From positions 14,560 through 78,559 of the forward strand of contig DYIT01000004.1 in assembly GCA_020723505.1 (NCBI GenBank): a stretch of 64,000 nucleotides of DNA, in the 5' to 3' direction. A program made the translations under genes and the position numbers. The stretch is from Candidatus Kuenenia stuttgartensis. GTDB taxonomy: Bacteria > Planctomycetota > JAKEIC01 > DYIT01. Positions 7,925 through 28,473 of the stretch are shown one piece after another; within the stretch, counting starts at the first letter, position 1, and every line of letters starts with the position of its first letter. The notes below the pieces were generated by a model. That model worked only from the letters and a program-made list of their open reading frames with translations. It was not told the DNA's origin and did not search any database.

Positions 7925-7963
7925 CACGGCGCCGCGGCCGGTTTCCGTTCCGGCCCGCGGGGC

Positions 7964-7971
7964 TGTATAAT
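7964..7971 (+). promoter_or_regulatory. Extended -10 element TGTATAAT upstream of the 8030 gene
   Basis: Exact TGTATAAT 59 nt upstream of ATG 8030, in the 105-nt gap after the previous stop. The same octamer occurs at 12865 (+) and 60053 (-) in equivalent positions. Confidence 0.4.
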
Positions 7972-8029
7972 GAGGGACTGCGGATCGGTTTCAACGCCGT
8001 CCGCACGGTTTTCCGGAAGGAGGATTGAC

Positions 8030-14054: not shown

Positions 14055-14081
14055 TTTTTCACCCGCCTTGCGGGTGAAAAA
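14055..14081. terminator. Bidirectional intrinsic terminator between the convergent corA and rimK-like genes
   Basis: TTTTT-CACCCGC-CTT-GCGGGTG-AAAAA. A 7-bp GC stem flanked by a T5 run and an A5 run. It overlaps the last codons of the rimK-like ORF. Confidence 0.6.
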
Positions 14082-14916: not shown

Positions 14917-14965
14917 GGCAGAATCGCGTCTCCTCCACGTTTCCTTCCGAACCCCGGACATGACA

Positions 14966-17482
14966 TCAGGATTTCAGTCCTTGCTTGTCCAGTAGTAGTT
15001 CCTCGAATACAGCGTACAAGCTTTCGTAGACGGGCCGGCTTTCTTCAGTAGGTTCCGAGTAGCAGTGCCCCATCACTTCGCGAGAGAGCCGGCAGGAATC
15101 AATCAAGACCACGACCCGGCCCAATCCTTCGTCCTTCCAGACGCAACGAAAATTCTTGTCCGGGAGGTCGAACGACTTCCCGCCTTCGATACCGCCCATC
15201 GCGACCGGTTTGATTTCGATTTCATAAGGCTCCAGAATAACGGTGCCTGCTGAGATACTCGCAAGACCGGTGCAATCAACCAGAAGCAGTTTCCCGCCTT
15301 CGCGCACGAAATTCCAAATAATCTCATACTCCTCGGATTCAAAGGCGCGCACTGGATTAATCAGGAGCAGGATGTCAGCTTCCTTCACGGCCCTTTTTAT
15401 TGAATGTTTAATCGAGGGAATGCAACCGAGGCGTTGTAGAGTTACGAAGGGTGTGTCAAAAGCTCTCTTTAGGGGGATTCCGGGTGATCCGACTGCCCCG
15501 GGGAATCCGGCCTCGCATTTGCCACTTAGAAACACCACTCTCGGCCTCTTTACGAACGGCTCCGGAAGGCGATAGTTACGCCGGTTCACCTCCGAAACAA
15601 TGAAAAGCCCGGCTAGACAGCCCACGAAAGCCGCAGGAAGCCCCGCAGCATAAAGCGTGGAGGGTCCCCTCTTCCAGTGAGAAAGAAGCACAGTAGCGAG
15701 ACCTATCGCCCCGGTCAGTAAAAAAACAACGTTCAAGGCATACCCAAAGACGTTCCTCTGATTAAGGTAGTTCATGAACCCCAGAAGAAGGCGGTAGTGA
15801 TCATGCCTGAATAGTGCAAAGGTTGAAAAAACAGTCTCATCCCCCCACACGACGACCCGGCCTTTCCCGACCTTTGTCGCAGCACCGACCATCAAAGTGC
15901 CAAACCGGGAATTCAAATCAGGCCGGAATTCTCCAAAGTTGCTGGGATTCGCCACGTCTTTCCAGTCAGAATAGCAGTTATTCGTGAGGGCTACCGTCTC
16001 ACTCAGGATAGGAGCCTCGACTGAGCAGGACGTCATGAGCTCGAAGGGCTTCTCGACTCGACAAGCTGCAGGATGAAACCCTAGAGGTCCTTCATCGAAA
16101 AGCGTATAGCCCCCGGTGGTGAGCCCGCTCAGCGCGTCGGGCCTGAACCTGAGTCCGAACCGATCCACGAGACGGTTAGAGTTCGTAGTCATCCCCATGA
16201 GGTCGTTGTGGTCGGAAAGTACCAGGAGCCCTCCTCCGCGGCGGACGAAATCCTCCACGGCATTAATTTCCCCATCTTTCAGAGGAATCGTTGGTGTCTT
16301 GACGATCAGGACATCGTGGTCTTCCAGCAGCTCCGGCGTGAAATCCCCTTTCTCGTGAATGTTCACGACATAATATGAGGTGAGCAAGGAAACAGCGTTC
16401 GAGTAGCTGTAAGCCGCGAGGTCGCCATACCAATTCTTGTCGAACTTCTTTGAGACCTGTTCCCAGTAGTCGCTATGGCTGCCGTCCACGAGAATTCGCC
16501 CCTGTTTTTGCTTTCCAGGGTCGTGAAACGTAAGACCTGCCAGAATCAGGAATACCGAGCCTAAGATTGCCGCGGGGAGGCGAAGCGGAACCTGCCTGTA
16601 GATCTGCAAGGATTCGCGGCTTGTTGAGAACGCCCCTCGGAGGTCCAGGGGCAAGAACTTGCCGAGTATCAGGGCAAGCGGCAGGAACGTGGCGATGAGG
16701 AACCATGGATCCCAGAAAACCTCCATCGGAGGCGGAATCGAGTGGTCCTTATCCACATTGGGGAAGTCGGCATATATCGCGAGGACGATAATGAAGCGGA
16801 AGAACGAAAAAGCGAGCAATACCGTCATGAAGAACAGGAACCGCCGCATCCGACTTCCAAAAGCTCCTGCCAGGAACAGAACTAGACCAGCGAAGGCGAA
16901 GCAGGTCATCGGTAAAAAAGCGATCTTGCCCGTGCTGACCACAACGGGAAGGAGGGTTGAAGAACCCTCAAGGTAGGCAGTACCGCCGGAGACGGCGCAG
17001 TCATAACCGAGAATTCTCATCGTCCAGCAGACTGGCCATGAGAGGGCCGTGAAAAATTGTGTCCTTGGTTCAAGGTGCCGGAAGAGAGCACGGAGGACGA
17101 GTTGACCCGGGAAAATCGACAGGAAGACTAACACCGCTGAGAAGGAGATCATCAAAGCTGCTTTCATGCCTGATGCAATCCTGCTGATGCGAGTAAGCGA
17201 AGGCGAAGGTGTCCTATCCACGTGTTGTTCCTGGCGGGTCATCCAGGCAACGAGCAAAAATCCGGAAACGATGAAAGCGATACCCCACCCCCACCCGTGG
17301 TTGCCGTAGTTTCCCAACAGAAATGGCCATGAAAAGGACGCAGTTAGGACCCCGACCCAGATACCGTACCCACGTATCGAGGTCGTCCGAGTAGTCGGGC
17401 TGTCCTCTCCATCTGCAAGGACTCGGCGTGCGCTCTCTATTCCCGATGGCTCGTTTCCGACGCTAATCTGATTATCCCCCAT
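14966..17482 (-). CDS. Polytopic membrane protein (838 aa) with two alpha/beta 'GG.LL.L.DH' modules (GldG/DUF4350/GATase1-like by eye); paralogue of the next gene
   Basis: About 9 N-terminal hydrophobic helices, then module 1 (DVLIVKTP...EINAVEDFVRRGGGLLVLSDHNDL ... GKGRVVVWGDETVF). More helices follow, then module 2 (ADILLLINP...EIIWNFVREGGKLLLVDCTG ... GLGRVVVLIDSCRL). GC is in the mid-50s %, lower than the core. Confidence 0.7.
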   Translation of the reverse strand: MGDNQISVGNEPSGIESARRVLADGEDSPTTRTTSIRGYGIWVGVLTASFSWPFLLGNYGNHGWGWGIAFIVSGFLLVAWMTRQEQHVDRTPSPSLTRISRIASGMKAALMISFSAVLVFLSIFPGQLVLRALFRHLEPRTQFFTALSWPVCWTMRILGYDCAVSGGTAYLEGSSTLLPVVVSTGKIAFLPMTCFAFAGLVLFLAGAFGSRMRRFLFFMTVLLAFSFFRFIIVLAIYADFPNVDKDHSIPPPMEVFWDPWFLIATFLPLALILGKFLPLDLRGAFSTSRESLQIYRQVPLRLPAAILGSVFLILAGLTFHDPGKQKQGRILVDGSHSDYWEQVSKKFDKNWYGDLAAYSYSNAVSLLTSYYVVNIHEKGDFTPELLEDHDVLIVKTPTIPLKDGEINAVEDFVRRGGGLLVLSDHNDLMGMTTNSNRLVDRFGLRFRPDALSGLTTGGYTLFDEGPLGFHPAACRVEKPFELMTSCSVEAPILSETVALTNNCYSDWKDVANPSNFGEFRPDLNSRFGTLMVGAATKVGKGRVVVWGDETVFSTFALFRHDHYRLLLGFMNYLNQRNVFGYALNVVFLLTGAIGLATVLLSHWKRGPSTLYAAGLPAAFVGCLAGLFIVSEVNRRNYRLPEPFVKRPRVVFLSGKCEAGFPGAVGSPGIPLKRAFDTPFVTLQRLGCIPSIKHSIKRAVKEADILLLINPVRAFESEEYEIIWNFVREGGKLLLVDCTGLASISAGTVILEPYEIEIKPVAMGGIEGGKSFDLPDKNFRCVWKDEGLGRVVVLIDSCRLSREVMGHCYSEPTEESRPVYESLYAVFEELLLDKQGLKS

Positions 17483-17487
17483 TCGCC

Positions 17488-19980
17488 TTATCCTTTCCCT
17501 CTCAACTGCTTCATGCGCGTAAGCATGTTACGGATGAAAGTGATGTTCCCGAGGTGCCACGCCACCATGCTCTCAACATTCCTGTTTGTAAAAAAGCGGC
17601 TATCCGACACAAACAGCATGCCTCCCTTCCCGTACTCCCGGTAAGTTGCGAGCAAATCCCCTTTGGAAACGAAGAATCTGTGAACGGCGCCGGGCGCGAG
17701 ATCTCCTTTGCTAGAGGGAGCCGGCTCGCGCACAATGATGGGCCATGCATCCATGAACTCGGGGTCCATGGGTTTCTTGTCCTTGTAGTACGTGTTCGGT
17801 GCCCGTCCGAGTGACCGGCCTTCAATGTCCAACCCAATGGCCTCAAGGAGCCGCTGTGATCCCTCCCTTTCCTCGTACCCGACGCTTAGAATGACCTGGC
17901 CTCCCTTAGCCATATAGTCCGTGATTAGATCGACCTCGTGGCATTGAATCGTTTTGAGGGGAGAAAGGATGACCAGGAGTTCAGCCTCGGATATGCTCTT
18001 CCGGTCGAAACAATTCAGAGAAACCGGAATGAACGCATTCCGTTCCAGATTAAGGTACAGGGCGCCTATTCCCCTTCCCTCGTCTCCGCCCCGGGAGGCC
18101 CAGGGGATGTGGTAGTAGTCAATTGCGGCCAGAGGGCCGGCGATAGCAGGGCCGCTCATCCGCTCCTTCGAGATTACGTCGGAAACCGGTCCGGAAAGCG
18201 CGAGGAAGAATGGGAAGATCAACGCAAGCAGCCTGGAGCCGCCGGACGCGCCCAAGGTGGTCGTCAGCAGAATCACCCAGACCAGGAATGCCAGCGGCTT
18301 AAGCCAGTACCAGCGCCCGTACACCGTTTCGCAGGAAAGCCATGTAAAGACGTTGTGCAGGAAGGGGGTGTATATGGAAGTTACAGACCCGTTCTGAAAT
18401 GATGTCGTATCTCCGAAAACCAGCACTTTCCCCCTCCCGTAGAAGGCCGCCGCGAGCAGGCACATGTCCCCCAGCTTTTCCCCATGCTCGTAGGAGTAAT
18501 TCCCGAGAAGGGATCCGCCAACGTTGTAAGGATTGCCTCCGTCCGAGAAGGAGAGCGGCCCCCATATTATGGAAATCGCAGGCGGGCCGATGGTTAGAGA
18601 TGCGCCGACGTCTATCCCTGTCTCATCCCGCGATCGCGCGCCTGCCAAAACCGGATGCCGTGCGAAAGACTGGCAGTAACTCCAGCCTCCGCGGCACGGG
18701 AACGCGGAGTCGAATTCGAACCGAACGTTGATTCTGTCGAGAAGTTCGTTGTAGGTGTCCTGGAGCCCGAAGACGTTCGTGTGGTCGCCCAGGATGAGCA
18801 AAGCCCCGCCCCTTTCCACGAACCCCCAGATTGCCCGGATCTCCCCCTCCTCCCACCGACGCCCCAGGTTGATTATGGCGAAGATGTCAGTCTCTTCAAG
18901 TTGTTCGGGCTTGAGGCGTTCGGCGTCGAGTTTCGAGACCCGGAACCCGTCCAGTTCCAGGAAGGCGGGAAGATGTCCAAACATGCCTCCCGAGTACGAG
19001 CCGTACTTTCCTAAGACTGCGGTGTCCCAGTCTAGATAGCCCTTATTCCAGAACATAATCCGATTTCTTCGAGGGGACAGGATTTCCCATGATTGCATCT
19101 GAAAGAGCGTAATCGGGACAAACGCGGCAAGCGCAACTAAGCCGACTACCCTACTGCGACTCGAGAATAGTGCAGAAGGGATCCTCTCCTTCGCGGGAAA
19201 AAGCATGGAGAGCCCGGCCAATGGCATGAGCAGTACCGGAAAAAGCCATCGGACCGAATTGGCAAGCACACCCGCCTCTTGTGGAAAGACGGTCGACGAG
19301 CTCTGGATGACCAGGAAGGCCGTCCAAGCCCCGAAGACCACTATCAGAGCTGCCGATAAAACCCGCCATGCAAAAATTCGGAAGGCAGCGGTCCCAATCA
19401 AGTAGACAATCGCAAACAGAAGCACCCAGAGACCGGAAACGGATGGACCGATTGTAATCTCGGCATTGATTAATATGCGTCCAAGCAGACCTGTGTACTC
19501 GTTGCTGAAAACTTCGAAGAAATTGTAGACAATCGGAACGGTTTCCAGGGCGAACCCCAGCGCCCACGCGAAGTACGAAAGAAGGCGCAAAGGACCGGCG
19601 CATAACGCCGGGCGTCCCCAAATAGCCGATGCCCTTCCGAACCCCCAGAGAAAGACGATAAGTAAGCCAAGGACATAGAGCCGGTCGGTCGAGAGGAAGA
19701 GAAGAAAGCCAGGGAATGCCATTGAGAGATAGGGAAGAAGCGCGTTTCGACGGAAGATAGCTTCACGTTTCGAAGGAGCCTGGAAGAGAAGAAGTCCTGC
19801 AAGGAGAAGGGCGATAAACAAGCGGCCGTTTAAAGGGCTCAGGATGCCGAAAGTGCCCCATGCTATGAGAAGTATCAGGAGAAACGTGGAATGGATGACA
19901 AGGTTCCTTGCGACTTCGGAAACCCGCAGGTTGGTGATTTTCCCCCTCAATCTCCCGAGAATGGATTCACCTGCGCTCAT
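17488..19980 (-). CDS. Polytopic membrane protein (~830 aa), paralogue of 14966..17482 with the same two-module layout
   Basis: Module 1: DIFAIINLGRRWEEGEIRAIWGFVERGGALLILGDHTNV ... GRGKVLVFGDTTSF. Module 2: AELLVILSPLK...DLITDYMAKGGQVILSVGYEE ... GKGGMLFVSDSRFF. Start at MSAGES (ATG 19980, preceded by GGAGAAG) is preferred; the ORF track extends to 20055. Confidence 0.7.
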   Translation of the reverse strand: MSAGESILGRLRGKITNLRVSEVARNLVIHSTFLLILLIAWGTFGILSPLNGRLFIALLLAGLLLFQAPSKREAIFRRNALLPYLSMAFPGFLLFLSTDRLYVLGLLIVFLWGFGRASAIWGRPALCAGPLRLLSYFAWALGFALETVPIVYNFFEVFSNEYTGLLGRILINAEITIGPSVSGLWVLLFAIVYLIGTAAFRIFAWRVLSAALIVVFGAWTAFLVIQSSSTVFPQEAGVLANSVRWLFPVLLMPLAGLSMLFPAKERIPSALFSSRSRVVGLVALAAFVPITLFQMQSWEILSPRRNRIMFWNKGYLDWDTAVLGKYGSYSGGMFGHLPAFLELDGFRVSKLDAERLKPEQLEETDIFAIINLGRRWEEGEIRAIWGFVERGGALLILGDHTNVFGLQDTYNELLDRINVRFEFDSAFPCRGGWSYCQSFARHPVLAGARSRDETGIDVGASLTIGPPAISIIWGPLSFSDGGNPYNVGGSLLGNYSYEHGEKLGDMCLLAAAFYGRGKVLVFGDTTSFQNGSVTSIYTPFLHNVFTWLSCETVYGRWYWLKPLAFLVWVILLTTTLGASGGSRLLALIFPFFLALSGPVSDVISKERMSGPAIAGPLAAIDYYHIPWASRGGDEGRGIGALYLNLERNAFIPVSLNCFDRKSISEAELLVILSPLKTIQCHEVDLITDYMAKGGQVILSVGYEEREGSQRLLEAIGLDIEGRSLGRAPNTYYKDKKPMDPEFMDAWPIIVREPAPSSKGDLAPGAVHRFFVSKGDLLATYREYGKGGMLFVSDSRFFTNRNVESMVAWHLGNITFIRNMLTRMKQLRGKG

Positions 19981-22585
19981 CTTTCTCTTCTCCAGGCGCT
20001 GGCCCATGTTCCGGAGCAAGCAAGACTCGCAACGCTGCCGCGTTTCCCCGGACAAGGTTCAAGGGCCCCGCCTCTCCCGGGCTGAAACCCCTTGCCTCCG
20101 CGCGAAAAGTATACGTCCCCTGCTTAAGAAGTAATGAGACCTTGCCGTCTTCGCCGGCGATGGGATTGATGAGCCTCCTCTCCTTTCCTCCAGCCGTGAA
20201 GGCATGCAGTGAAGCTCCAGGAATCGGTTTGCCCTTGTCATCCAGGATCTCGGCCTCAACCTTCACGCCCATACCTAGGGAGAAGATTGCACTGAAGCCG
20301 TAATTGTTGTGCGAAACCTCTATCTCGTCGTTCACTTCCGGGGCGAGTTCATTACCCTGACCCACGAGCATGTACTTGCCCGGGTCGAGGTACTTGAAGG
20401 CGCCGAACGCCTTTGCCTCGAAGTCCTTGAATCTAGCCGTGCTGTGGATCGCCCAGGCGGGACTTCCCGGCGGTATATGATAGAGGACGACTTCCACGCT
20501 TCTGCCTGCGAGACTGCATCCCTCGCTCCTTACCTCGATGTTGATTTCCCCTCTCGGCAGGCTGATGTCTGCAACCAAGTGCCCGACCTTATCCTTGACT
20601 TCGATGTATTTGCGGTAAGTATCGCCTCGGCGTCTTACTTCGAGAGTGTACTTCCCGGGGCGGACTGTCTTGTATATGTAGCGCCCTTCCTTCATCTCAG
20701 CTTTCTGAGCAAATCGGGCGGTACGGTCCCATGGGTAGAGGAGGAAAATCTCGGCATCCTGAACCGGGAGCCCGCCGTAAATCAAGTTGCCTTCCAGAGA
20801 AGGGCTTAACCCGTACATCTTGTCGTTGAACTCAAGCTGTGAGCTCATTTCGTTATCAAGAATAAACCCGGTAACGGGATGCCTTTCCATTCCCTTGAGG
20901 GCACACAGGGAAGTGAGGTAGGAGAAGCCTGGATTTACACCCGTGAGATTGAAATTGCCATTACCGTCGGGGAAGGTGATACGGAAGAAGCCCTCCTCGT
21001 CATAGACGACTAAAGGCTCGAACTTGCAAAGAGCTTTCCCTGAAATACGCCCCCCTTTGGAGAGTTGGATGACGAGAGGTTCCGATGGTTTCTCTCCTTC
21101 CTTCCCTTTCTCCGTGCTCGGTCCAATCGAGACGAACCTCGTGGTTGCGTAGTCCGGGTGAACTACGAGAAAAAAGGATGGGTATGCCGGGACGCGGTCG
21201 AAGCAGAATCGGCCTCCAGCATCCGTCGCGGTCCAGCGCCGAATTACGGCGCCCCCTATATTCTGGACTATCGAACCAAGAAGCTTCCCGGCACGGTTGG
21301 AAGGTTCCCAACAGACCATGGCGTCAGACAGCGGCTCTCCAGTATCCTGCGCATGAACATGGCCTTTGACCTTGCGGCCGGCATTGAACCTAAGATCCTC
21401 TGGGTTGACTCTGCCGTCGGAGATCAGACGAAACGGATAGTATAGGTCCGCAAAGGCCGGATTTTCGGACCGGATTAGGTAGTTGCCTGCCGGAAGCGCA
21501 GGCAGCTCTATCCTGCCATCGTCATCTGATTTCACGGGTAGTGAAAATGCATCTTCCGGAATGTTCGGGATTGCGATGCGGAAGGCGGATTTCCCGATGG
21601 GATTTTTCCCTTCGGTGTCGGAAGCCCTGATAGTCCCTGCATCGGCCTTTGGCATGTCAATCTTCACCCCCTGGGATCCGGAGATCACGTTTTCGACTAG
21701 GGAAATGAATTTTCCTTTATTAAAGAGAAGCAGTGTGTATGGTCCGCCGGGGAGGTGCTCGAATCGGAAGGAGCCGTCATTCGCGGGGTGAATGATGAAT
21801 CGGAAGGGCACGGCAGGGGTCAGTGCGACCAACTCAATGTCCTCTGGGGCCATGTCCGTACTCGTCCTGACTGATCCCTCTAACCAAGCTCCTTCTTCGA
21901 GGCGAATCTTAAGCTCCTTCAACAAGACGCCGGGTCTGATGACTGCGCCCTTGCATGCAGGGGCAAAACCCTGTGACCAGGCATAGACCTTGAACGCGCA
22001 AGGCGGAAGTTCCGTTTTGAAGGCACCGTCTTTTTCTGAGACTAATGAAGCGACAGATGGGGAGGGCGAGCTCCTCGACTCTGCTCGGGGCAGGCTTCCT
22101 GACGAGCTGTTCCCGCCATGCGGCCACCCGAAACCCGGAAGTCCTGAAACACCTGAGGCAATGTCTTGCATGGCGAGGACACCGTCTTTGACCAGTAAAA
22201 CCGGCTCCGGATTCCACACTCCGTTGAATGGAACGAAAAATATCCGACATCCTGAAATTGATTTGGCTGAAGGGTTGAGTACCAATCCTTCAATCAAGCC
22301 CCGGTTCCCAGGGACTTTTTCCAGGGTTTTCGACGCATCACGCTCTTTATCTCCAGCCTTGTCCGAATCGTGTTCTCCTTTCTTTTTATCATCCACGGAA
22401 TGCTGTGGGTCGTTCGGAAACCAAATTCGATCATCACGGCGCCCTGCTGATCCCCAGAGCAAGAACGCGGAGACAATCGGAACGGAGGCGATAAGACCCC
22501 AAGAGGCGATCGTTACTGAAACTCTCAGGGGCGGCCAAGAAGCCGCCCCTGAGAGGAAATCCCGCATTTTACCGAAGGCATTCAT
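19967..22585 (-). CDS. N-terminally membrane-anchored protein (872 aa) built of repeated CarboxypepD_reg-like beta-sandwich modules
   Basis: Single N-terminal TM (VTIASWGLIASVPIVSAFLLW). Recurrent 'PG.Y' strand motif: LPGGPYTLLLF, LPAGNYLIRSE, VRPGKYTLEVR, LDPGKYMLVGQ, LKQGTYTFRAE. ATGA overlap with the upstream gene at 22582-22585. Confidence 0.75.
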   Translation of the reverse strand: MNAFGKMRDFLSGAASWPPLRVSVTIASWGLIASVPIVSAFLLWGSAGRRDDRIWFPNDPQHSVDDKKKGEHDSDKAGDKERDASKTLEKVPGNRGLIEGLVLNPSAKSISGCRIFFVPFNGVWNPEPVLLVKDGVLAMQDIASGVSGLPGFGWPHGGNSSSGSLPRAESRSSPSPSVASLVSEKDGAFKTELPPCAFKVYAWSQGFAPACKGAVIRPGVLLKELKIRLEEGAWLEGSVRTSTDMAPEDIELVALTPAVPFRFIIHPANDGSFRFEHLPGGPYTLLLFNKGKFISLVENVISGSQGVKIDMPKADAGTIRASDTEGKNPIGKSAFRIAIPNIPEDAFSLPVKSDDDGRIELPALPAGNYLIRSENPAFADLYYPFRLISDGRVNPEDLRFNAGRKVKGHVHAQDTGEPLSDAMVCWEPSNRAGKLLGSIVQNIGGAVIRRWTATDAGGRFCFDRVPAYPSFFLVVHPDYATTRFVSIGPSTEKGKEGEKPSEPLVIQLSKGGRISGKALCKFEPLVVYDEEGFFRITFPDGNGNFNLTGVNPGFSYLTSLCALKGMERHPVTGFILDNEMSSQLEFNDKMYGLSPSLEGNLIYGGLPVQDAEIFLLYPWDRTARFAQKAEMKEGRYIYKTVRPGKYTLEVRRRGDTYRKYIEVKDKVGHLVADISLPRGEINIEVRSEGCSLAGRSVEVVLYHIPPGSPAWAIHSTARFKDFEAKAFGAFKYLDPGKYMLVGQGNELAPEVNDEIEVSHNNYGFSAIFSLGMGVKVEAEILDDKGKPIPGASLHAFTAGGKERRLINPIAGEDGKVSLLLKQGTYTFRAEARGFSPGEAGPLNLVRGNAAALRVLLAPEHGPAPGEEKDERR

Positions 22586-22725
22586 TTCCTTTTATCGCTC
22601 TTGTCGTTATTTGCAGGCGGAGGAGGCGGATCAGCGAAGAACTCCACGCCGGCGGAAATCGGGGAGAGGTTCCCCGCCGCATCCCGCGCCTGCGCATGGA
22701 TCGTGTGCCAGCCGGGCGACAGCGG
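22569..22725. repeat. Direct repeat copy A (~157 bp): 3' end of the Ig-repeat gene plus the first 6 codons of the 872-aa gene
   Basis: Aligns by hand with 26840-26988. The first ~120 nt differ at about 7 positions. The last ~30 nt are more diverged, with a 9-nt indel (ccagccggg present only in copy A). Confidence 0.85.
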
Positions 22726-24981
22726 TTTGACGACCTGGAAAGAGAACAACCCGCCCCCATCCGCAGGCGTCTCCCCTTCCGGATTTGCATCAATAAGGAT
22801 TGACACGATGCTCAGAGGCTCTGAGGTTCCCCTGATTATTGGGGTCTTTGTCGTCATCTCGCCGTTCACCGGCGATCTGATGAGGGGTGCCGCCGGAGGC
22901 ACAGTGTCTACTTTGAATACGATGGTCTCGGAGGTTGCAGTGTTTCCTGCGCCATCTGAGGCTACGGCGTAGACTGTGTGGAGACCCTCAGCCAAGGGGG
23001 CGGTCAGAGTGAATGAGAACACTCCGCCCGGTCCGGTAGTTGTGGTTCCGGCCAGGTTCTCGTCAACCACGATTGCGATTTCTGCGTCAGAGTCCGTGCC
23101 TGCGCCGGAAATTGTCGGCGTGCTGTCGTTTGTCAGTTCAATTGGGTTGAGAATCGGTGTCCCGATGAGCGTATCCACAGTGAATGAAACTGTTTTGGAT
23201 GCGGCCGTGTTTCCCGCAGCGTCAGTCGCCACGGCGTAGCCCGTGTGCAGACCGTCGCCAAGCGCAGTGGGTACCGTCATATTGAACCCGCCGCCTTCGT
23301 TTGCCGTGACCAAACCAACCAGATCGCCATCAACGTATACATGCACTAAAGCGCCCACATCTGTTCCTGAACCCACAACATCAGGTGTGTTGTCCGAGAT
23401 TACGCTCCCGTTGGCCGGACTCGTGATAATCGGCGTTCCAATCACGGTGTCAATAATAATATGCACATAGTTTGACGGTTCTGTGAATACTCCTTCCGGA
23501 CTCACGCCAATTGCAAAAATAACATGCTCACCATCCTGTAAAATAATTTCCGTTTCATATTCGAATTGTCCGCTTGGACATGATATTTCTTCAATCTCAA
23601 TGCTATCAATATAGAATTTGCAATTAAATCCAACTTCCACTGTTCCAATTATTTCTGGTTTACTATCATTTGATATCAGATAATCAGGAGGGGAAACAAT
23701 ATGTGGCGGAGAATATCCATGCTCTCTACCACATGTTCCACTCTCATCTGGGACTTTTTTTGTTTTCCTTACACTGCATCTAATAGCCTCACCACTTTGG
23801 TTATTGCCAATACTGCAGACTCCTTTTTTCTCTTCATTCAATAATGTGCAAATCCCTTTCCCAACATCCTCAACAGAACAAAATGCATTGTTCTTTTTTC
23901 CGACCTGATTCTCAGAAGGAGTAAATACTGAACATTGTCCAGTATTTGCTTCCTGCATAATGCTGCAGTTCGAAAAGTGCCCGGATCCGCCACCGTCCAT
24001 AACTGAGCAAAATGCATCAAATGCACCTTTTTCAATTGAACATCTTGCTTCTCCCGTTTGAGTGCTTTGCACACTGCATTTAGCTACCCCCATTCCTCCG
24101 CCATCAGAGTCAATAGCACTGCATTCTGGACTTCTTTCACCATCGAGTGGAGAATCATGAAAGACACTGCAACTAGAATTGTTACCGCTGTCATTGCTAA
24201 AAACTGAACAAAAAACCTCCTCCGTTTCTTTTTGTACAACCGAGCATTTCTGTTGTTCTCCGCGATCCATGAAAACGCTGCACATGTCGCTCGATCCAAT
24301 TCTAGTTCTCGATTTACCTACGCTGCAATTTGCTTTCCCACCTTCCCCTGCATTATCAACAGAACACCATTGATCTGATTCTTTTGACCAGCTTACGACC
24401 GAACAACCTGCTTGCCCTGCCGATTTAGTACTTTCTAGAACACTACAACTATTTCGATGAGGAGGTCCCTCTGTCGATCCCTCTTGTACGCTACAACTTG
24501 CCCTACCCGAATCAACCCATGCCGAGCAAAACGTATTCTCTTTGCTTGTATCGAATACCGAGCATGAACTTTTATTTGAGTTTCCATAAACTGAGCATCG
24601 TGCCTCTCCAATATCATTTTCACCAACAACAGAGCATTGCTTCCTATCTTCCGCTACAGAACAGTGCTGACTCTCCCCCGATGTTGAGCATCTTCCTCCA
24701 GCATATATATCGCAATCAACTGAACAATTTTTATCTGGCCGCGGGAGATGCTCTGTACTACATACAATATTTTGAATAGAAATAACACCGGATTCTGCAA
24801 TACCAAAAGGATTCTGGATTTTAATTTCATTTGATAAAATCCTAGAACCGATATTTTCACAATCCAGTTGGCCTAGATAATTATAGTTCAATTCAGCAAA
24901 ACAAACATCAACCTGAAAAGAAAGTAACGAAATTACAAGAACCAAACCGTATCTGATATTTCTATAGCTTGTGCTACTCAT
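22582..24981 (-). CDS. Secreted chimeric surface protein (799 aa): signal peptide, ~27 'C-S-V' repeat units, one AT-rich Ig-like module, then three GC-rich bacterial Ig-like repeats and a Pro/Lys tail
   Basis: Signal peptide MSSTSYRNIRYGLVLVISLLSFQVDVCFA. C-S-[VIA] units span residues 74-417. Three ~90-aa repeats end in ...GLHTGYAVATDAAGNTA / ...GLHTVYAVASDGAGNTA / ...GWHTIHAQARDAAGNLS. GC jumps from the mid-30s % to roughly 55-65% near 23450 inside the ORF. Confidence 0.8.
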   Translation of the reverse strand: MSSTSYRNIRYGLVLVISLLSFQVDVCFAELNYNYLGQLDCENIGSRILSNEIKIQNPFGIAESGVISIQNIVCSTEHLPRPDKNCSVDCDIYAGGRCSTSGESQHCSVAEDRKQCSVVGENDIGEARCSVYGNSNKSSCSVFDTSKENTFCSAWVDSGRASCSVQEGSTEGPPHRNSCSVLESTKSAGQAGCSVVSWSKESDQWCSVDNAGEGGKANCSVGKSRTRIGSSDMCSVFMDRGEQQKCSVVQKETEEVFCSVFSNDSGNNSSCSVFHDSPLDGERSPECSAIDSDGGGMGVAKCSVQSTQTGEARCSIEKGAFDAFCSVMDGGGSGHFSNCSIMQEANTGQCSVFTPSENQVGKKNNAFCSVEDVGKGICTLLNEEKKGVCSIGNNQSGEAIRCSVRKTKKVPDESGTCGREHGYSPPHIVSPPDYLISNDSKPEIIGTVEVGFNCKFYIDSIEIEEISCPSGQFEYETEIILQDGEHVIFAIGVSPEGVFTEPSNYVHIIIDTVIGTPIITSPANGSVISDNTPDVVGSGTDVGALVHVYVDGDLVGLVTANEGGGFNMTVPTALGDGLHTGYAVATDAAGNTAASKTVSFTVDTLIGTPILNPIELTNDSTPTISGAGTDSDAEIAIVVDENLAGTTTTGPGGVFSFTLTAPLAEGLHTVYAVASDGAGNTATSETIVFKVDTVPPAAPLIRSPVNGEMTTKTPIIRGTSEPLSIVSILIDANPEGETPADGGGLFSFQVVKPLSPGWHTIHAQARDAAGNLSPISAGVEFFADPPPPPANNDKSDKRK

Positions 24982-26411
24982 TTAGGACCCCCTTTTCCGA
25001 AAAAGTCCTCGAGAAACCCTTCAGCTGCTTCTTCAGGAGACAACCGCTTGATATATACTTTAGCTTCTATGTCTGGGCCATCTATAACTAACGTGTTATC
25101 AGCGCCAGGAAATACACTGATTAGCTTGTAATAGTCTGATTGAATTTTAAGCACATGTGTGCCGATTGGGACATTTGATACAATAGTATATCCGGCTGTA
25201 TTTGAGTTAAATTTAATCGGCGCAAACCTGTGCGACTTTTCAATCAACAGGAATTTAATTACATCAGAAAAGGGGGCACGGTTATCATCATTAATAAAAT
25301 GAATATTCAATTTATAAGCCTTTTCCAGAAGGAAATCAATTCTGTTAATATTCTGTTTATCATTTATTATAAAAGTAGTGGACATTTTCGCAAATCCTTC
25401 GCAACCAATAACCAAATCGTACTCTCCGAAAGGGACATTACGCAAAGAAAATGTACTCTCGGAGAAAACGCCGGATTTCCTTAAACTGTATATTTCATTG
25501 CAATTTGGCGAGATTGAGATAAGCTCATATGAGAATTCACATTTATCATGGTTGAAACAAGGGTTATTTATCTGAATCTGTAGCTCTGCAACCGATAAGA
25601 AAATATCGAACTTAACGGGCAGGTTATTAAAAACGACATTTCTTGAAAGTGTGACTGAATTTTCGTTAGGTAGAAATATATAAATATAATAATCCTCAAG
25701 AAGCATTCCAGGAAAGATATAAAAACCATCCGACATAGTAAGATAAGATTGGAAAAGTCTATGATTCTGATGCAATTCTATCCGTGCATTTTCAACTGGG
25801 ACGTAATGCTTATCATAGATAGTGCCATAAAGAGAATCATCGCCAATTAAGAAAAAGTCAGGGAGAACTAGATTCAGTCTCTTAACGTCATTTGGAAATA
25901 GAGAAATCTTTACTGATTTGTAAATCATACTATTTTCAGGAAGAAAAGCGATAATCGAAACAAAATGAGGTCTTGCAACCAAAGTCTGAATAGAATAGAA
26001 TGTGCCGTCTTCAGATGCAAAGAGAATCTTCTGCCTGGAACTGGGATTATTTACAATGATTTTTGCGTTTGAACATGGGGATCCATCTGCTTTTAGGACT
26101 TTGCCGAGCACCATGGCTTCATTAAATCTCAGATTCGATATATTTGTTTGGAAATCTGTCAATCTATTTTGACAAATCTGATTGTAAGATTGCTCTGATG
26201 AAACAGAATCAAAAAAGGTTTGATTTAATCCAACTGAATTCGCAGCATTTTGTGATAAGGAATAGCCAGCTAGGGTTATGGAATCACCTGCTTTTAAAAA
26301 ATGAATAAATAGAAAAATAGCAAATAAACAAATAAAAACTATTATAAAGAAGGAAAGATAAATAGATTTACAATTCCAATGGGAGTTCTTTATATTATCA
26401 TATTTAATCAT
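24978..26411 (-). CDS. N-terminally membrane-anchored protein (477 aa) with ~4 CarboxypepD_reg-like beta-sandwich modules; very AT-rich
   Basis: TM IYLSFFIIVFICLFAIFLFIHFL. Module starts such as GKVLKADGSPCSNAKIIVNN and GTIYDKHYVPVENARIELHQ. 'P.G.Y/H' strands NVPFGEYDLVIG and NVPIGTHVLKIQ. ATGA overlaps at both ends. About 32-35% GC. Confidence 0.7.
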   Translation of the reverse strand: MIKYDNIKNSHWNCKSIYLSFFIIVFICLFAIFLFIHFLKAGDSITLAGYSLSQNAANSVGLNQTFFDSVSSEQSYNQICQNRLTDFQTNISNLRFNEAMVLGKVLKADGSPCSNAKIIVNNPSSRQKILFASEDGTFYSIQTLVARPHFVSIIAFLPENSMIYKSVKISLFPNDVKRLNLVLPDFFLIGDDSLYGTIYDKHYVPVENARIELHQNHRLFQSYLTMSDGFYIFPGMLLEDYYIYIFLPNENSVTLSRNVVFNNLPVKFDIFLSVAELQIQINNPCFNHDKCEFSYELISISPNCNEIYSLRKSGVFSESTFSLRNVPFGEYDLVIGCEGFAKMSTTFIINDKQNINRIDFLLEKAYKLNIHFINDDNRAPFSDVIKFLLIEKSHRFAPIKFNSNTAGYTIVSNVPIGTHVLKIQSDYYKLISVFPGADNTLVIDGPDIEAKVYIKRLSPEEAAEGFLEDFFGKGGPK

Positions 26412-26629
26412 GATGCCAACCCCATTGAGGTTTTGTAATAAAACTTACAGATGTCGACAAATAGGTAGTTAATAATAGCTGTACGTGCTGAAGAAAATCT
26501 TTGAAATCCATTGAACATGTCCTTCATCCTAAGCCAAATTTCCCATCGCATCGATTTAACCAAATGAGGGTGGATGTAAAATAATGAGCAAATAACATCC
26601 ATAATCCCTCCATGTTTATAGAATCCCAA
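26408..26629 (-). CDS. Possible small ORF (73 aa) heading the AT-rich part of the operon
   Basis: Its stop overlaps the start of the 477-aa gene in an ATGA arrangement. A 73-codon open frame is fairly unusual in ~33% GC DNA. No recognisable motif. Confidence 0.25.
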   Translation of the reverse strand: MGFYKHGGIMDVICSLFYIHPHLVKSMRWEIWLRMKDMFNGFQRFSSARTAIINYLFVDICKFYYKTSMGLAS

Positions 26630-26839
26630 TCCCCATCCTTAAAGTCAAGAAAAATCAGAAAAACAAAAAACGTGTGAAATGTTATTGGGGAGTTCGGAAA
26701 CCGAGTACAGTCAAGTGTGGTTACAGTTCTCTTGGATATCCTTCGGTTGATTCAAAACGACGCAACAACCAGTAGGCCAATGTGTTACAACGCAGCTACG
26801 AAAACGGAAGCCTCATAATTTCATAGAAAAACCCGTTTC

Positions 26840-26988
26840 TTACCGAAGGCAATCATTTCTTTTTATCGCTCTTGTCGTTATTTGCAGACGGAGGAGGCGG
26901 ATCTGCGAAGAACTCCACGCCGGCGGAAATCGGGGAGAGGTTCACAGCCGCATCTCGCGCCGCGCAATGGACCGTGTGTGACAGCGGG
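26840..26988. repeat. Direct repeat copy B (~149 bp), same orientation as copy A, at the right edge of the AT-rich block
   Basis: Encodes ...HTVHCAARDAAVNLSPISAGVEFFADPPPPSANNDKSDKKK*, versus ...HTIHAQARDAAGNLSPISAGVEFFADPPPPPANNDKSDKRK* in copy A. It then retains ATGATTGCCTTCGGTAAG (MIAFGK; copy A has MNAFGK) before AT-rich DNA starts at 26839. Confidence 0.85.
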
Positions 26989-27257
26989 GCGCGCTCGAAA
27001 AGGACCCTGTTCGTGATTTCAGCGCCCACGTACTTGAGGGCACGTGAGAGCATACCCACTGCGTAATTCGCGGCAGCCGGATCCGAGTCGACGGGCGGAA
27101 GAACCAGCACGACCTTCTTGCCCTTGAACGGGAACTTGCGGATTGCGTCGAACCAGCGGTACACGAAAGCCTTGAACTGGGCGGTGGGCCCCCACCAGTA
27201 CTCGGGCGTCCCCAGAACCGTTCCCACACCCCGCTCTCCTCCACATTGCGGCTTCAT
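26853..27257 (-). pseudogene. Chimeric remnant: internal fragment of a flavodoxin-like/NADPH-dependent FMN reductase-type protein fused to a duplicated tail of the Ig-repeat gene
   Basis: LGTPEYWWGPTAQFKAFVYRWFDAIRKFPFKGKKVVLVLPP...YAVGMLSRALKYVGAEI resembles the middle of flavodoxin-family proteins (GtPvYw...t.q.KafiDR). The N-terminal FMN-binding part is missing, with an in-frame TGA 3 codons upstream of the ATG. The C-terminal 40 aa are repeat copy B. Confidence 0.55.
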
Positions 27258-27372
27258 TTTCTCTCACCGTAAGTAGGCAGCTGCAATCTGACATGGGTCA
27301 GGAGAGGATTCCGAGGGAACCTGCTCTCTGATGAGAAAAGAAAAATCAGGAGCGCGTTCGGGATGAACCCCC

Positions 27373-28473
27373 CTACAGCCCTGCTTCGCGGAGCTTCTGG
27401 ACGGCTTTCTTCTGATCAGCCGTGAGCGTCTCGGGGATTTCAATCCTCACTGTCACGTGGTGATCGCCCTTTGTACCGTCGTCCTTCTGGACGCCCATGC
27501 CCTTGAGCCTGAGCACGGATCCGTCCCGGATGCCTGCAGGAATCTTGAGGCTCGCGGTGCCCCAGTAAGTCGCCACGTCGATTTTCGTGCCGAGCAGGGC
27601 GTCGGAGATTCTGATGGAGACTTCGGATACCACGTCGGTCCCCTTGCGGGTGAAGGTCTCGTGGGCTCCGATTGCGACCTTGAGAATCAGGTCGCCGTCC
27701 GGGGCGCCGCCAGCCCCGACGTCGCCCAAGCCTGCAAGTCTTATCTTCGCCCCTTCGTTGATTCCGCGCGGGATTTTCACCGAAACCGTCTTCGTAGTCT
27801 CGACGCGGCTGCGCCCTCCGCACGCCCCGCACGGCGCGCTCGTCTTCTGCCCCGTGCCGCTGCAGTAGGGGCACTGCCTGTTGAACGCGAAGGCTCCCTG
27901 GGAGAACTGCATCACTCCCGCCCCGCCGCATGCGGGGCAGGGTTCCCGGGAGGCGCCGGGCGCAGAACCCGTGCCTCCGCACTCCCCGCACTCCTCTATC
28001 CTCGGCACCTTGACCGTGCTCTTGCCGCCCTTCATGGCCACGTCGAACGGGACGGTGAGAGTGAACTCCCTGTCTTCTCCACGCCTCGGCTGTGCGCCCC
28101 CGGAATCCCTCGCGAATCCTTCGCCCGGGTCGAAGAACGAGCCGAAGAGGTCGCGGAAACTCCCCAAATCGTCGAACTTGAACGAGGTGCGACGCCCGCC
28201 CCCCCCGCGCGCCCCCCTGCCGAAGAGGTCCTCGAATCCCGAAAAGCCCGAGGCCCTCGCCGCCGAGAGCTCGTCGTATTTCCTCCGCTTGTCCGGGTCG
28301 GAAACCACGTCGTAGGCCTCGTTGATTTCCTTGAACTTCTCCTCCGAGGCCTTGTTTCCCGGATTGCGGTCGGGGTGGTACTTCTTCGCAAGCGTCCTGA
28401 ACGCCTTCTTTATCTCGTCGATGCCGGCGTCCTTCTTGACGCCGAGTATGTCGTAGTAGTTCTTTCCGGCCAT
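27373..28473 (-). CDS. dnaJ: Molecular chaperone DnaJ (type I, with zinc-finger domain)
   Basis: J domain NYYDILGV...YHPDRNP. G/F-rich linker. Four CxxCxGxG motifs ([32 protein letters not shown]). Start at [12 protein letters not shown]; the ORF track extends to 28536. Confidence 0.9.

What the first reader, a model, noticed from the sequence alone, without database searches (positions are those of the whole stretch)
23731..24762. About 27 consecutive 'C-S-V' units in a secreted protein: a one-cysteine-per-turn repeat I cannot assign to a known family
Seen: residues 74-417 of the 799-aa protein consist of units ending or starting with C-S-[V/I/A]. Examples are KQCSVVGEN, ARCSVYGNS, SSCSVFDTS, ASCSVQEGS, QWCSVDNAG, DMCSVFMDRG and AFCSVMDGGG. 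By my count the Cys-to-Cys spacings are 9-18 residues, mostly 11-13. A hydrophobic or aromatic residue usually follows CSV, and a D/S/N/G-rich turn follows that. At the DNA level the motif is written with different codons: Cys as TGC or TGT, and Ser as AGT (24166-24168), AGC, TCG or TCA. The two Ser codon boxes cannot interconvert by a single synonymous step. So the periodicity is old and maintained by selection on the protein, not by recent DNA duplication. It is not CxxCH (heme), not the Myxococcus Cys-rich repeat, and not the 12-mer TCT repeat of insect antifreeze proteins. Inference: the spacing suggests a beta-solenoid or stacked-hairpin stalk with an internal or aligned Cys ladder. Alternatives are a thiol/metal-reactive surface, or sites for an unknown Cys/Ser crosslink.
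Basis: partly seen in the sequence, partly recalled or inferred. Interest (0 to 1): 0.8.

Follow-up and report, generated by a model that had tools for sequence, protein, structure and literature searches.

The report
New cysteine-serine repeat surface protein
The repeat is real: it belongs to a so far undescribed family of secreted bacterial proteins built from many short "Cys-Ser-Val" units, probably a rigid beta-strand rod on the cell surface, and here it sits in a 12-kb acquired gene island whose function is unknown.

Summary
ORF 22582-24981 (-) encodes a 799-aa exported protein. Residues 74-417 hold 27 C-[S/T]-[V/I/A/T/L] units, written with mixed codons and with no DNA tandem repeat.

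No Pfam, NCBIfam or PDB sequence relative exists. A profile of the unit finds 249 protein clusters among 1.84 billion representatives. They share a signal peptide, an N-cap (CSxxCD), a C-cap (CT-CS-CSV-G.C), a preferred unit number (mode 17) and position-specific spacing. So this is a folded module, not a loose linker.

AlphaFold places one short strand on each unit, but with low confidence (pLDDT 50-65). The Foldseek matches are not significant, though all are parallel beta-helices. Cys-count parity is 76 even to 70 odd, which argues against obligatory all-paired disulfides.

The gene lies in a conserved cluster: CarboxypepD_reg-type membrane-anchored proteins, the CS-repeat protein, and two polytopic GldG-like membrane proteins. 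The cluster recurs in at least six independent loci. In this window it forms a 12.4-kb island between dnaJ and rimK that a related genome lacks.

Best reading: a beta-solenoid-like rod with an internal Cys/Val ladder, acting as the distal part of an Ig-domain surface protein. The function is unproven. This is a new repeat family of a known general kind.

The parts
22582..24981 (-). Gene for the 799-aa exported CS-repeat / Ig-like surface protein (P0001)
   Evidence: ORF. Identical protein in the public collection on a 95.6-kb NCBI contig.
24895..24981 (-). Residues 1-29: signal peptide-like N-terminus (basic stretch, hydrophobic 9-27, 'CFA|E')
   Evidence: Sequence and hydrophobic segment. The cleavage site is inferred.
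24763..24894 (-). Residues 30-73: N-terminal pre-repeat region with 'LNYNYLGQ.D..IG', shared with P0004 and P0008
   Evidence: Alignment A2 and sequences.
23731..24762 (-). Residues 74-417: array of 27 C-[S/T]-[V/I/A/T/L] units plus the terminal Cys (the finding)
   Evidence: Profile score 188 bits, E 1.6e-51.
24709..24726 (-). Residues 86-91 'CSVDCD': the family's N-cap feature (an extra Cys four residues after a unit Cys, followed by Asp)
   Evidence: The same 'CSxxCD' occurs with 4+6 spacing in about half of the 17-unit members.
23731..23850 (-). Residues 378-417: C-cap, C-T-L-L / C-S-I / C-S-V / ..G-T-C
   Evidence: The same order CT - CS - CSV - G.C ends the array in P0004, P0008, P0003 and the short family.
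23422..23709 (-). Residues ~425-520: first, divergent Ig-like domain after the 'SPP..PPDYLISND' linker
   Evidence: AlphaFold pLDDT 76-82 with beta strands. 54% identical to the same region of P0004.
22627..23421 (-). Residues ~521-785: three Big_13 / Ca_tandemer Ig-like domains
   Evidence: Pfam Big_13 E 1.7e-37 and NCBIfam Ca_tandemer E 6e-26. Foldseek match to SiiE BIg domains at E 3e-14.
22585..22626 (-). Residues 786-799: Pro-rich, basic C-terminal tail 'ADPPPPPANNDKSDKRK'
   Evidence: The same kind of tail is in P0008.
24978..26411 (-). Upstream partner gene: 477-aa protein with an N-terminal membrane anchor and CarboxypepD_reg beta-sandwich domains. Its stop overlaps the CS-repeat gene start.
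   Evidence: A CarboxypepD_reg protein sits in the same position in L002, L095, L097, L099 and L100.
19967..22585 (-). Downstream partner gene: 872-aa protein with an N-terminal membrane anchor and several CarboxypepD_reg domains
   Evidence: Orthologue in L002 at 38% identity, E 7e-93.
17488..20055 (-). 855-aa polytopic membrane protein with a GldG-like DUF4350 / ABC_transp_aux / GIFT domain
   Evidence: Orthologues in L093 and L095-L100.
14966..17482 (-). 838-aa paralogue of the 855-aa protein (polytopic, GldG-like)
   Evidence: Orthologues in L093, L095 and L099.
14919..27376 (.). 12.4-kb accessory island holding the whole cluster, between rimK and dnaJ
   Evidence: In the related contig L101, dnaJ and rimK are 22 bp apart and the flanks are colinear. 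Island GC is 30-59% against about 62% in the flanks.
22554..22707 (.). Direct repeat copy A (3' end of the CS-repeat gene)
26825..26978 (.). Direct repeat copy B (88% identical). It forms the tail of the chimeric 134-aa ORF 26853-27257, a remnant of another Big_13-type gene end.

Best explanation
The 27 C-S-V units are this genome's copy of an uncurated family of Sec-exported 'CS-repeat' modules. Each unit (x-C-S-[V/A/T/I]-hydrophobic, then a Gly/Asn/Ser/Asp/Pro-rich turn of 5-14 residues) supplies one short beta-strand. I infer that the strands stack in parallel and in register into an elongated beta-solenoid-type rod. The rod is closed by its own N-cap (C-S-x-x-C-D) and C-cap (C-T.. / C-S.. 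/ C-S-V.. / G-x-C). Cys and Val/Ala side chains would form internal ladders, as in the reduced Cys ladders of InlJ and the FdlA beta-helix. In the window protein, the roughly 345-residue rod is the N-terminal, distal half of a surface protein. The other half is four Ig-like (Big_13, Ca-stabilised type) domains and a basic tail. The gene is co-transcribed in a 12.4-kb acquired island with two membrane-anchored beta-sandwich-array proteins and two polytopic GldG-like membrane proteins. I infer that these partners export, anchor or assemble the protein in the envelope. SHOWN: the motif, the family, the caps, the preferred unit number and position-specific spacing, the synteny, and the island. INFERRED: the solenoid geometry, the buried and largely unpaired state of the Cys, and the structural (stalk or fibre) role.
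For: Family: a 3-unit profile built from the only three word-index homologues scores left-out members at 110-130 bits, against 4 bits or less for shuffles. It finds 249 clusters at E<=1e-3 and 79 at E<=1e-10 among 1.84e9 representatives. Over 154 members and 2754 units, the composition is C 100%, S 93% / T 7%, then V 44 / A 26 / T 19 / I 7, then F/L/I; 90% of all Cys in these proteins sit in C[ST].
Folded rather than linker: the unit number has a sharp mode at 17 (65 proteins, with 21 at 18). The spacer length at each of the 17 positions varies by only 0.3-2.4 residues (SD) across 40 members. The N- and C-caps are conserved from 270-aa proteins to the 799-aa window protein.
Strand per unit: two AlphaFold runs (a 3-sequence and a 60-sequence MSA) both put a strand on most C-S-x motifs (nearly every one in the window protein). 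All 15 Foldseek matches of the short-form model are parallel beta-helix/solenoid proteins, including pectate lyases, Ag43, the CsgA fibril and tailspikes.
Parallel stacking: the same directional motif recurs in every strand. There is also a weak period-3 signal in unit profiles (lag-3 correlation positive, permutation p=0.03).
Cys not obligatorily paired: the Cys count is even in 76 members and odd in 70.
Precedent for reduced Cys ladders in solenoids: FdlA (PMC9410043) and InlJ (Bublitz 2008, cited in PMC3196904).
Envelope system: the order CarboxypepD_reg protein, then CS-repeat protein, then two GldG-like membrane proteins recurs in L093 and in all 4 loci fetched via the 855-aa protein that had enough upstream DNA. 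Other members end in a C-terminal TM helix plus a basic tail. DUF4350/GldG-like proteins with Ig-like or S-layer neighbours were predicted to form a secretion or membrane-remodelling complex (PMC5898192).
Against: Both AlphaFold models are low-confidence in the repeat (pLDDT 50-65) even with 60 sequences. The Foldseek hits are non-significant (best E about 1, TM about 0.15). I could not read coordinates, so no Cys-Cys distance or ladder was seen. Ser at +1 is more conserved (93%) than the presumed core Val at +2 (44%), and a simple core-ladder model does not explain this. The period-3 signal is weak and is absent from spacer-length covariation. Planctomycetota short forms are not in the GldG-like cluster, so the module does not depend on that machinery. 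No experimental datum exists for any member.
Confidence: 0.45

Rival explanations
1. Disulfide-cross-linked envelope or matrix protein. The regularly spaced Cys would exist to form intra- or intermolecular disulfides that harden a proteinaceous wall layer, as proposed for the Cys-rich YTV wall proteins of Planctomycetales or the chlamydial Omc proteins.
For: The protein is extracytoplasmic. The canonical short form has 18 Cys (17 units plus a terminal Cys), an even number. The family is multi-copy in a Planctomycetota MAG, and the window's dnaJ is closest to a Planctomycetota MAG (55%). Cys-rich YTV wall proteins are documented (PMC8567305).
Against: Cys-count parity is 76 even to 70 odd, and about half of the short forms carry a 19th Cys. 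The adjacent Ser and the position-specific spacing are conserved beyond what cross-linking needs. Pfam YTV does not match any of the 13 members scanned.
Confidence: 0.2
2. Thiol rail for metals or sulfur. The stacked or regularly spaced thiolates would bind a chain of metal ions or (poly)sulfide, serving sequestration, mineral nucleation, sulfur handling or electron conduction.
For: There is one thiol per roughly 12 residues and almost no other Cys. The parity is not even, which is compatible with free thiols. In one Planctomycetota locus the neighbours include ferritin and a CobW-type metallochaperone.
Against: There are no CxxC or CxxCH pairs and no His enrichment. The metal-related neighbours are not conserved in other loci. 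No cofactor-biogenesis genes lie in the island.
Confidence: 0.1
3. Array of post-translational modification sites. The invariant C-S dipeptide would be recognised by an enzyme, for example for thioether/lanthionine formation, heterocyclisation, or S- or O-glycosylation.
For: C-S is the most conserved feature, more so than the hydrophobic positions. A PMT_2-type glycosyltransferase lies upstream in L095. A radical SAM gene (8986-10299) and a RimK-type ATP-grasp gene (14059-14961) are in the window.
Against: No modifying enzyme is conserved across the loci. RimK and the radical SAM gene lie outside the island, and rimK directly abuts dnaJ in the relative that lacks the cluster. These are large Sec-exported proteins, not leader-peptide RiPP precursors.
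Confidence: 0.08
4. Largely disordered, low-complexity spacer with short linear motifs, or an intertwined homo-oligomeric fibre (triple beta-helix or beta-spiral type) that a monomer prediction cannot capture.
For: pLDDT is low in both models. The spacers are rich in G/S/N/P/A/T. Spacer lengths differ between subfamilies: 9-18 here and up to 22 in P0004.
Against: For disorder: the preferred unit number, the per-position spacer SD of 0.3-2.4 residues, and the conserved caps. The oligomeric-fibre variant is not excluded and would be a sub-case of the best explanation.
Confidence: 0.12

Closest known systems
Reduced cysteine ladders inside solenoid proteins (Listeria InlJ leucine-rich repeats; FdlA fucoidan lyase parallel beta-helix)
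   Same: One Cys per repeat or coil at an equivalent core position, stacked and not disulfide-bonded. The proteins are extracellular, and InlJ is an adhesin. Sources: PMC9410043; Bublitz 2008 as cited in PMC3196904.
   Different: InlJ repeats are 21-residue LRRs with a Leu skeleton. FdlA has only five ladder Cys in a catalytic pectate-lyase fold. No LRR or pectate-lyase model matches here. The unit here is about 12 residues with an invariant C-S.
Tenebrio/Dendroides-type antifreeze beta-helix (12-residue TCTxSxxCxxAx)
   Same: A repeat of about 12 residues, Cys-rich, with a Ser/Thr-rich beta-solenoid (from my own knowledge of the family).
   Different: The antifreeze helix has two Cys per 12 residues, forming one internal disulfide per coil, and a T-x-T ice-binding face. 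Here there is one Cys per unit, no TCT, no even Cys parity, and variable spacer lengths.
RTX beta-roll and curli CsgA-type two-sheet solenoids
   Same: A short single-strand unit with a Gly-rich turn is repeated many times, with two units per rung. The proteins are secreted and the fold needs caps. The CsgA fibril is among the (non-significant) Foldseek matches.
   Different: There is no GGxGxD nonapeptide and no Ser/Gln/Asn ladder motif. No Pfam hit was found. Calcium binding was not tested.
YTV Cys-rich cell-wall proteins of Planctomycetales
   Same: Secreted, Cys-rich, repetitive envelope proteins named after a three-residue motif. They occur in the PVC-group taxonomic neighbourhood (PMC8567305).
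   Different: The motif and sequence family differ, and Pfam YTV is not matched. YTV genes are reported only in Planctomycetales.
Giant Ca-stabilised Ig-repeat adhesins (SiiE BIg, Big_13 / NCBIfam Ca_tandemer)
   Same: The C-terminal half (residues ~521-785) is a bona fide member: Big_13 E 1.7e-37, Ca_tandemer E 6e-26, Foldseek to SiiE E 3e-14.
   Different: Those adhesins are much longer and usually T1SS substrates. None is known with a CS-repeat head.
GldG / DUF4350-containing envelope complexes
   Same: The two 838- and 855-aa partners carry DUF4350 / ABC_transp_aux / GIFT domains. In archaea, DUF4350 proteins with Ig-like or S-layer neighbours were predicted to form a secretion or membrane-remodelling complex (PMC5898192).
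   Different: Here the domain is embedded in polytopic proteins with 8-9 hydrophobic segments. There is no ABC ATPase/permease and no MoxR/vWA partner in the island. The TIGR03521 GldG score is far below cut-off.

Membership tests
CS-repeat family (defined here; not in Pfam/NCBIfam) | N-terminal signal peptide followed by a 50-130-aa pre-repeat region | tested here: met
   Window protein residues 1-73. Same layout in members read.
CS-repeat family (defined here; not in Pfam/NCBIfam) | At least 12 consecutive C-[S/T]-[V/A/T/I]-hydrophobic units, 8-22 residues apart, holding about 90% of the protein's Cys | tested here: met
   27 units. 29 of the 33 Cys lie in the array (27 unit Cys plus C90 and the terminal C417). 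Profile score 188 bits.
CS-repeat family (defined here; not in Pfam/NCBIfam) | C-cap: a C-T unit, then C-S, then C-S-V, then a lone Cys preceded by Gly or a small residue | tested here: met
   C378-T-L-L, C389-S-I, C402-S-V and G-T-C417, compared with units 15-18 of the short family.
CS-repeat family (defined here; not in Pfam/NCBIfam) | Optional N-cap 'C-S-x-x-C-D' | tested here: met
   C86-S-V-D-C90-D. The 4+6 spacing is seen in about half of the short forms.
Big_13 / Ca_tandemer Ig-like repeat adhesins | Tandem Big_13 domains scoring above the curated cut-offs | tested here: met
   Pfam Big_13 128 bits (cut-off 27). NCBIfam NF033510 90.6 bits (cut-off 50).. This applies to residues ~521-785 only.
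Multihaem c-type cytochromes | CxxCH haem-binding motifs | tested here: not met
   No CxxCH or CxxC anywhere in the protein.
TmAFP-type antifreeze beta-helix | Strict 12-residue TCTxSxxCxxAx repeat with two Cys per repeat | tested here: not met
   One Cys per unit, spacing 9-18, no TCT.
Planctomycete YTV wall proteins (Pfam YTV) | Match to the Pfam YTV model | tested here: not met
   No YTV hit at E<=1 for the window protein or 10 family members.
Parallel beta-solenoid fold (structural class) | Stacked parallel strands, one or more per repeat, seen in a confident model or a solved structure | tested here: inconclusive
   One strand per unit but pLDDT 50-65. Only non-significant beta-helix matches.
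GldG (TIGR03521) gliding-motility ABC auxiliary protein (for the 838/855-aa neighbours) | Score above the equivalog cut-off; partner ABC ATPase and permease | tested here: not met
   17 bits against a cut-off of 390. Only the domain-level Pfam hits DUF4350 / ABC_transp_aux / GIFT pass. No ABC genes lie in the island.
RiPP / graspetide-type substrate of the adjacent RimK-like ATP-grasp | The modifying enzyme is conserved next to the precursor | tested here: not met
   rimK abuts dnaJ in a relative that lacks the cluster. There is no RimK homologue in the other loci.

The most novel reading that the evidence does not exclude
The CS array is a new protein fold whose 17-35 in-register thiols (plus the invariant neighbouring Ser) form a continuous reactive rail. 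That rail would bind a linear chain of metal ions or sulfane sulfur, giving an extracellular wire or sulfur/metal-handling rod. It would be assembled by a previously unrecognised envelope machine built from two polytopic GldG-like proteins and membrane-anchored beta-sandwich arrays, and this machine would spread as a mobile island.
Probability: 0.08. Interest if true: 0.9.

Novelty: new variant of a known kind. Interest (0 to 1): 0.55.

Why it matters
If the reading holds, this defines a new repeat family with at least 249 clusters at 50% identity. It has no curated model (Pfam or NCBIfam) and no solved structure, and AlphaFold does not model it with confidence. It would be by far the longest one-Cys-per-strand ladder known, with 17-35 rungs against 5-12 in FdlA and InlJ. 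That raises a concrete and testable question: why are a thiol and a neighbouring hydroxyl kept at every rung of an exported protein?

The finding also links the module to an uncharacterised five-gene envelope cluster with GldG-like membrane proteins. This gives those domains of unknown function a candidate cargo or partner. Finally, it shows the cluster moving as an accessory island.

Tried and rejected
- Known families: Pfam and NCBIfam on the window protein and 10 relatives gave nothing for the repeat. PDB sequence searches with two profiles gave nothing. Literature searches for a CSV/Cys-Ser-Val repeat gave nothing relevant.
- Haem and antifreeze motifs are absent.
- The word-index homology search is nearly blind to this family: 3 hits and 16 hits. 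Single-sequence phmmer is weak at 40-50 bits. The 3-unit profile was needed.
- RimK as a graspetide-like modifier was rejected, because rimK is flanking DNA. The radical SAM gene at 8986-10299 lies outside the island. The ferritin/CobW neighbours of one Planctomycetota locus are not conserved.
- The obligatory-disulfide model was weakened by the Cys parity of 76 to 70.
- Spacer-length covariation gave no lag signal.
- The promoter/terminator scan was at background level. Rfam gave no hit. TRF found no DNA repeat.
- A genome-contig scan with the protein itself found nothing. A dnaJ scan of species representatives gave only about 43% matches. Exact look-ups of the window proteins found no record, so the source organism is only loosely placed.
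- The second AlphaFold run with a 60-sequence alignment did not raise confidence.
Full report
OBSERVATION

The minus-strand ORF 22582-24981 encodes a 799-aa protein. Listing every Cys with its codon gives 27 units of C-[S/T]-x between C74 (24760-24762) and C402. They break down as 19 CSV, 3 CSI, 2 CSA, 2 CST and 1 CTL. One extra Cys sits in 'C86-S-V-D-C90-D', and a lone terminal Cys is C417 (23731-23733). Unit spacing is 9-18 residues with a median of 12.

Cys is coded by TGT 11 times and TGC 16 times. Ser is coded by AGY 11 times and TCN 15 times. Tandem Repeats Finder sees no DNA repeat. The protein has 24 CS[VIA] against at most 6 in 20,000 shuffles. There is no CxxCH or CxxC. The N-terminus has a basic stretch and a hydrophobic segment at 9-27.

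WHAT THE REST OF THE PROTEIN IS

Pfam and NCBIfam recognise only the C-terminal part: Big_13 (E 1.7e-37) and Ca_tandemer (E 6e-26), with nothing N-terminal of about residue 519. AlphaFold models residues 425-690 as Ig-like domains at pLDDT 76-91. Foldseek matches them to SiiE and other giant adhesins at E 3e-14. The architecture is therefore: signal peptide, 45-residue pre-repeat region, CS array, 'SPP..PPDYLISND' linker, four Ig-like domains, and a Pro-rich basic tail.

THE REPEAT BELONGS TO A FAMILY

The word-index search found only two relatives, P0002/P0004 (856 aa, same architecture) and P0003 (433 aa, almost pure repeat). Across these three proteins, 85 units show C 100%, S 98% and V 74%, and little else is conserved.

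A profile of overlapping three-unit segments scored left-out members at 110-130 bits, while shuffles reached 4 bits. Run exhaustively against 1.84 billion representatives, it found 249 proteins at E<=1e-3, 79 at E<=1e-10 and 4 at E<=1e-30.

The members I read are all signal peptide, then an N-terminal region, then 12-35 C-[S/T]-[V/A/T/I] units. A few obvious false positives occur, such as P0040. Over 154 members and 2754 units, 90% of all Cys are in C[ST]. None of 10 members hits Pfam or NCBIfam. Neither profile hits a PDB sequence. I found no paper describing the repeat.

A FOLDED MODULE, NOT A LINKER

The commonest form is about 280 aa with exactly 17 units plus a terminal Cys: 65 proteins have 17 units and 21 have 18. 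Its Cys-to-Cys spacings are conserved position by position (for example 12, 11, 10, 14, 10, 15, 13, 11, 13 ...). The SD per position is 0.3-2.4 residues across 40 members.

The array begins with a Cys-less pre-unit 'LPTSV'. In about half of the members it also has an extra Cys in 'CSxxCD'. It ends with CT-Phi, then CS, then 'CSVIGG..G..C'. The window protein keeps both caps: C86-S-V-D-C90-D at the start, and C378-T-L-L / C389-S-I / C402-S-V / G-T-C417 at the end. Its 27-unit array is therefore a longer version of the same module. Only P0001, P0004 and P0008 fuse it to Ig-like domains. Several others end in a C-terminal TM helix and basic tail.

STRUCTURE

Two AlphaFold runs were made: the window protein with a 3-sequence MSA, and the short-form P0060 with a 60-sequence MSA. 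Both place one short strand on essentially every unit, but pLDDT stays at 50-65.

Foldseek of the short-form model gives no significant match (best E about 1, TM about 0.15). Even so, all 15 listed targets are parallel beta-helix or solenoid proteins. Unit profiles of the short family show a weak period of three. V-rich units fall at positions 2, 5, 8, 11, 14 and 17. The lag-3 correlation is positive while lags 1, 2 and 4 are negative, with permutation p=0.03. Spacer-length covariation shows nothing.

The same directional motif recurs in every strand, which is more natural for parallel in-register stacking than for an antiparallel meander. This point is an inference.

The Cys count beyond the signal peptide is even in 76 members and odd in 70. 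An all-disulfide design is therefore not conserved. Reduced Cys ladders inside solenoids have precedents in FdlA (PMC9410043) and InlJ (Bublitz 2008, cited in PMC3196904). I had no access to model coordinates, so no ladder was actually seen.

One thing remains unexplained by the simple ladder picture: Ser at +1 (93%) is more conserved than the presumed core residue at +2.

GENOMIC CONTEXT

On the minus strand the genes overlap or abut in this order:
- a 477-aa protein with an N-terminal TM anchor and CarboxypepD_reg domains;
- the CS-repeat protein;
- an 872-aa protein with an N-terminal TM anchor and CarboxypepD_reg domains;
- an 855-aa and an 838-aa protein, both polytopic, with a GldG-like DUF4350 / ABC_transp_aux / GIFT domain.

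In L093 a CS-repeat protein (P0009) is followed by orthologues of the 855-aa (E 2e-74) and 838-aa (E 1.5e-70) proteins. L002 carries two CS-repeat/Big_13 paralogues, CarboxypepD_reg proteins and an orthologue of the 872-aa protein (E 7e-93).

I then fetched loci through the 855-aa protein alone, which gave six metagenome loci. All four with enough upstream DNA carry a CS-repeat ORF on the same strand. The order there is: CarboxypepD_reg protein, CS-repeat protein, an unknown protein of about 380 aa, and the two GldG-like proteins. Short forms in a Planctomycetota MAG are not in this cluster. That MAG has at least 5 paralogues, three of them around an ECF sigma factor and a Ser/Thr kinase.

DUF4350/GldG-like proteins with Ig-like or S-layer neighbours have been predicted to form a secretion or membrane-remodelling complex in archaea (PMC5898192).

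THE CLUSTER IS AN ISLAND

A related contig (L101, dnaJ 76% identical) has glmU-like, trkH, trkA, dnaJ, rimK and corA in a contiguous run, with 22 bp between dnaJ and rimK. In the window the same flanks are separated by 12.4 kb (14919-27376), which is the whole cluster. This removes rimK and the radical SAM gene at 8986-10299 as candidate modifiers.

The island's GC is 51-59% for most genes. It drops to 30-44% from about 23400 to 26700, covering the 477-aa gene, the CS array and the first Ig-like domain. The flanks are at about 62%.

A 154-nt direct repeat (22554-22707 and 26825-26978, 88% identical) duplicates the gene's 3' end. It forms the tail of a chimeric 134-aa ORF that starts with an FMN-reductase-like fragment. 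This suggests cassette replacement or a deleted tandem paralogue.

The host is poorly placed. The best named dnaJ relative is a Planctomycetota MAG at 55%. The window also has two 1200-aa Ser/Thr kinases.

INTERPRETATION

Most likely (about 0.45), the CS array is a beta-solenoid-type rod with internal Cys/Val ladders and its own caps. It would serve as the distal stalk or fibre part of a surface protein that the co-encoded membrane proteins export, anchor or assemble.

The rivals are:
- a disulfide-cross-linked wall protein (0.2);
- disorder or an oligomeric fibre (0.12);
- a metal or sulfur-binding thiol rail (0.1);
- a modification-site array (0.08).

None of these is excluded by direct evidence. 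The decisive data are a confident structure and thiol/metal/modification mass spectrometry on a purified member.

NOVELTY

This is not a member of any curated family I could test. It is a new repeat family within the known general class of beta-rich tandem-repeat surface proteins. It has an unusually long one-Cys-per-strand periodicity and a conserved, uncharacterised gene cluster. Interest is moderate to fairly high (0.55). The family and the synteny are solid. The structure and the function remain inferences.

Noticed in passing
window 14919-27376: The whole five-gene cluster is a 12.4-kb insertion/deletion difference relative to a related genome (GCA_041308265.1 contig JBFZBW010000006.1). 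In that genome dnaJ and rimK are 22 bp apart. Island GC is 30-59% against about 62% in the flanks.
   Followed up: yes
window 22554-22707 and 26825-26978; ORF 26853-27257 (-): A 154-nt direct repeat (88% identical) brackets 4271 bp. The upstream copy is the tail of a chimeric 134-aa ORF whose N-terminal part resembles an FMN reductase fragment and whose end copies '..RDAA.NLSPISAGVEFFADPPPP..KKK' of the CS-repeat protein. This looks like a scar of cassette exchange or of a deleted tandem paralogue.
   Followed up: partly
window ~23400-26700: There is a sharp GC mosaic inside the island and inside the gene. The 477-aa gene, the CS array and the first Ig-like domain are 30-44% GC. The three Big_13 domains and the downstream genes are 51-59% GC. 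This suggests a second, more recent replacement from a low-GC donor, with a junction near residue 520.
   Followed up: partly
L002 1452-4022 and 5488-8007: A metagenome contig carries two tandem CS-repeat/Big_13 paralogues (P0004, P0008), each next to a CarboxypepD_reg-like protein. P0008 has the same 'EFFADPPPP..KKK' tail as the window protein.
   Followed up: partly
L091 4432-5283, 9045-9899, 10001-10846 (Planctomycetota MAG GCA_004295085.1): Three 281-284-aa short-form CS-repeat paralogues flank an ECF sigma factor and a 962-aa Ser/Thr kinase/TPR protein. The MAG has at least five paralogues in all.
   Followed up: partly
P0009, P0017-P0021, P0026, P0030, P0033 (family members): A subgroup of CS-repeat proteins ends in a hydrophobic helix plus a short basic tail. 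This is either a sorting-signal-like feature or a C-terminal membrane anchor. No PEP, LPXTG or other known sorting motif was noticed.
   Followed up: no
L095 1145-2992: A PMT_2 / GT-C type glycosyltransferase lies two genes upstream of the CS-repeat gene in one locus. It was not found in the other loci.
   Followed up: partly
window 50464-54237 and 54320-58003 (+); 58042-60024 (-); 60203-63427 (+): Two adjacent Ser/Thr protein kinases of about 1250 and 1230 aa, another CarboxypepD_reg protein (660 aa), and a DUF4388/TPR/PQQ beta-propeller protein. This gene content is typical of PVC-group or myxobacteria-like genomes.
   Followed up: no
window 5550-12743 (+): A plus-strand run of genes: a HEAT-repeat protein, two proteins without Pfam hits, a radical SAM protein (8986-10299), and an 828-aa protein with a spermine/spermidine synthase domain. 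All lie outside the island and their function is unknown.
   Followed up: no
P0040 (hit): A 184-aa protein with eight perfect copies of 'GNQTIEQKPFCSV' matched the profile. It looks like an unrelated recent tandem repeat (a false positive), unlike the true family.
   Followed up: no
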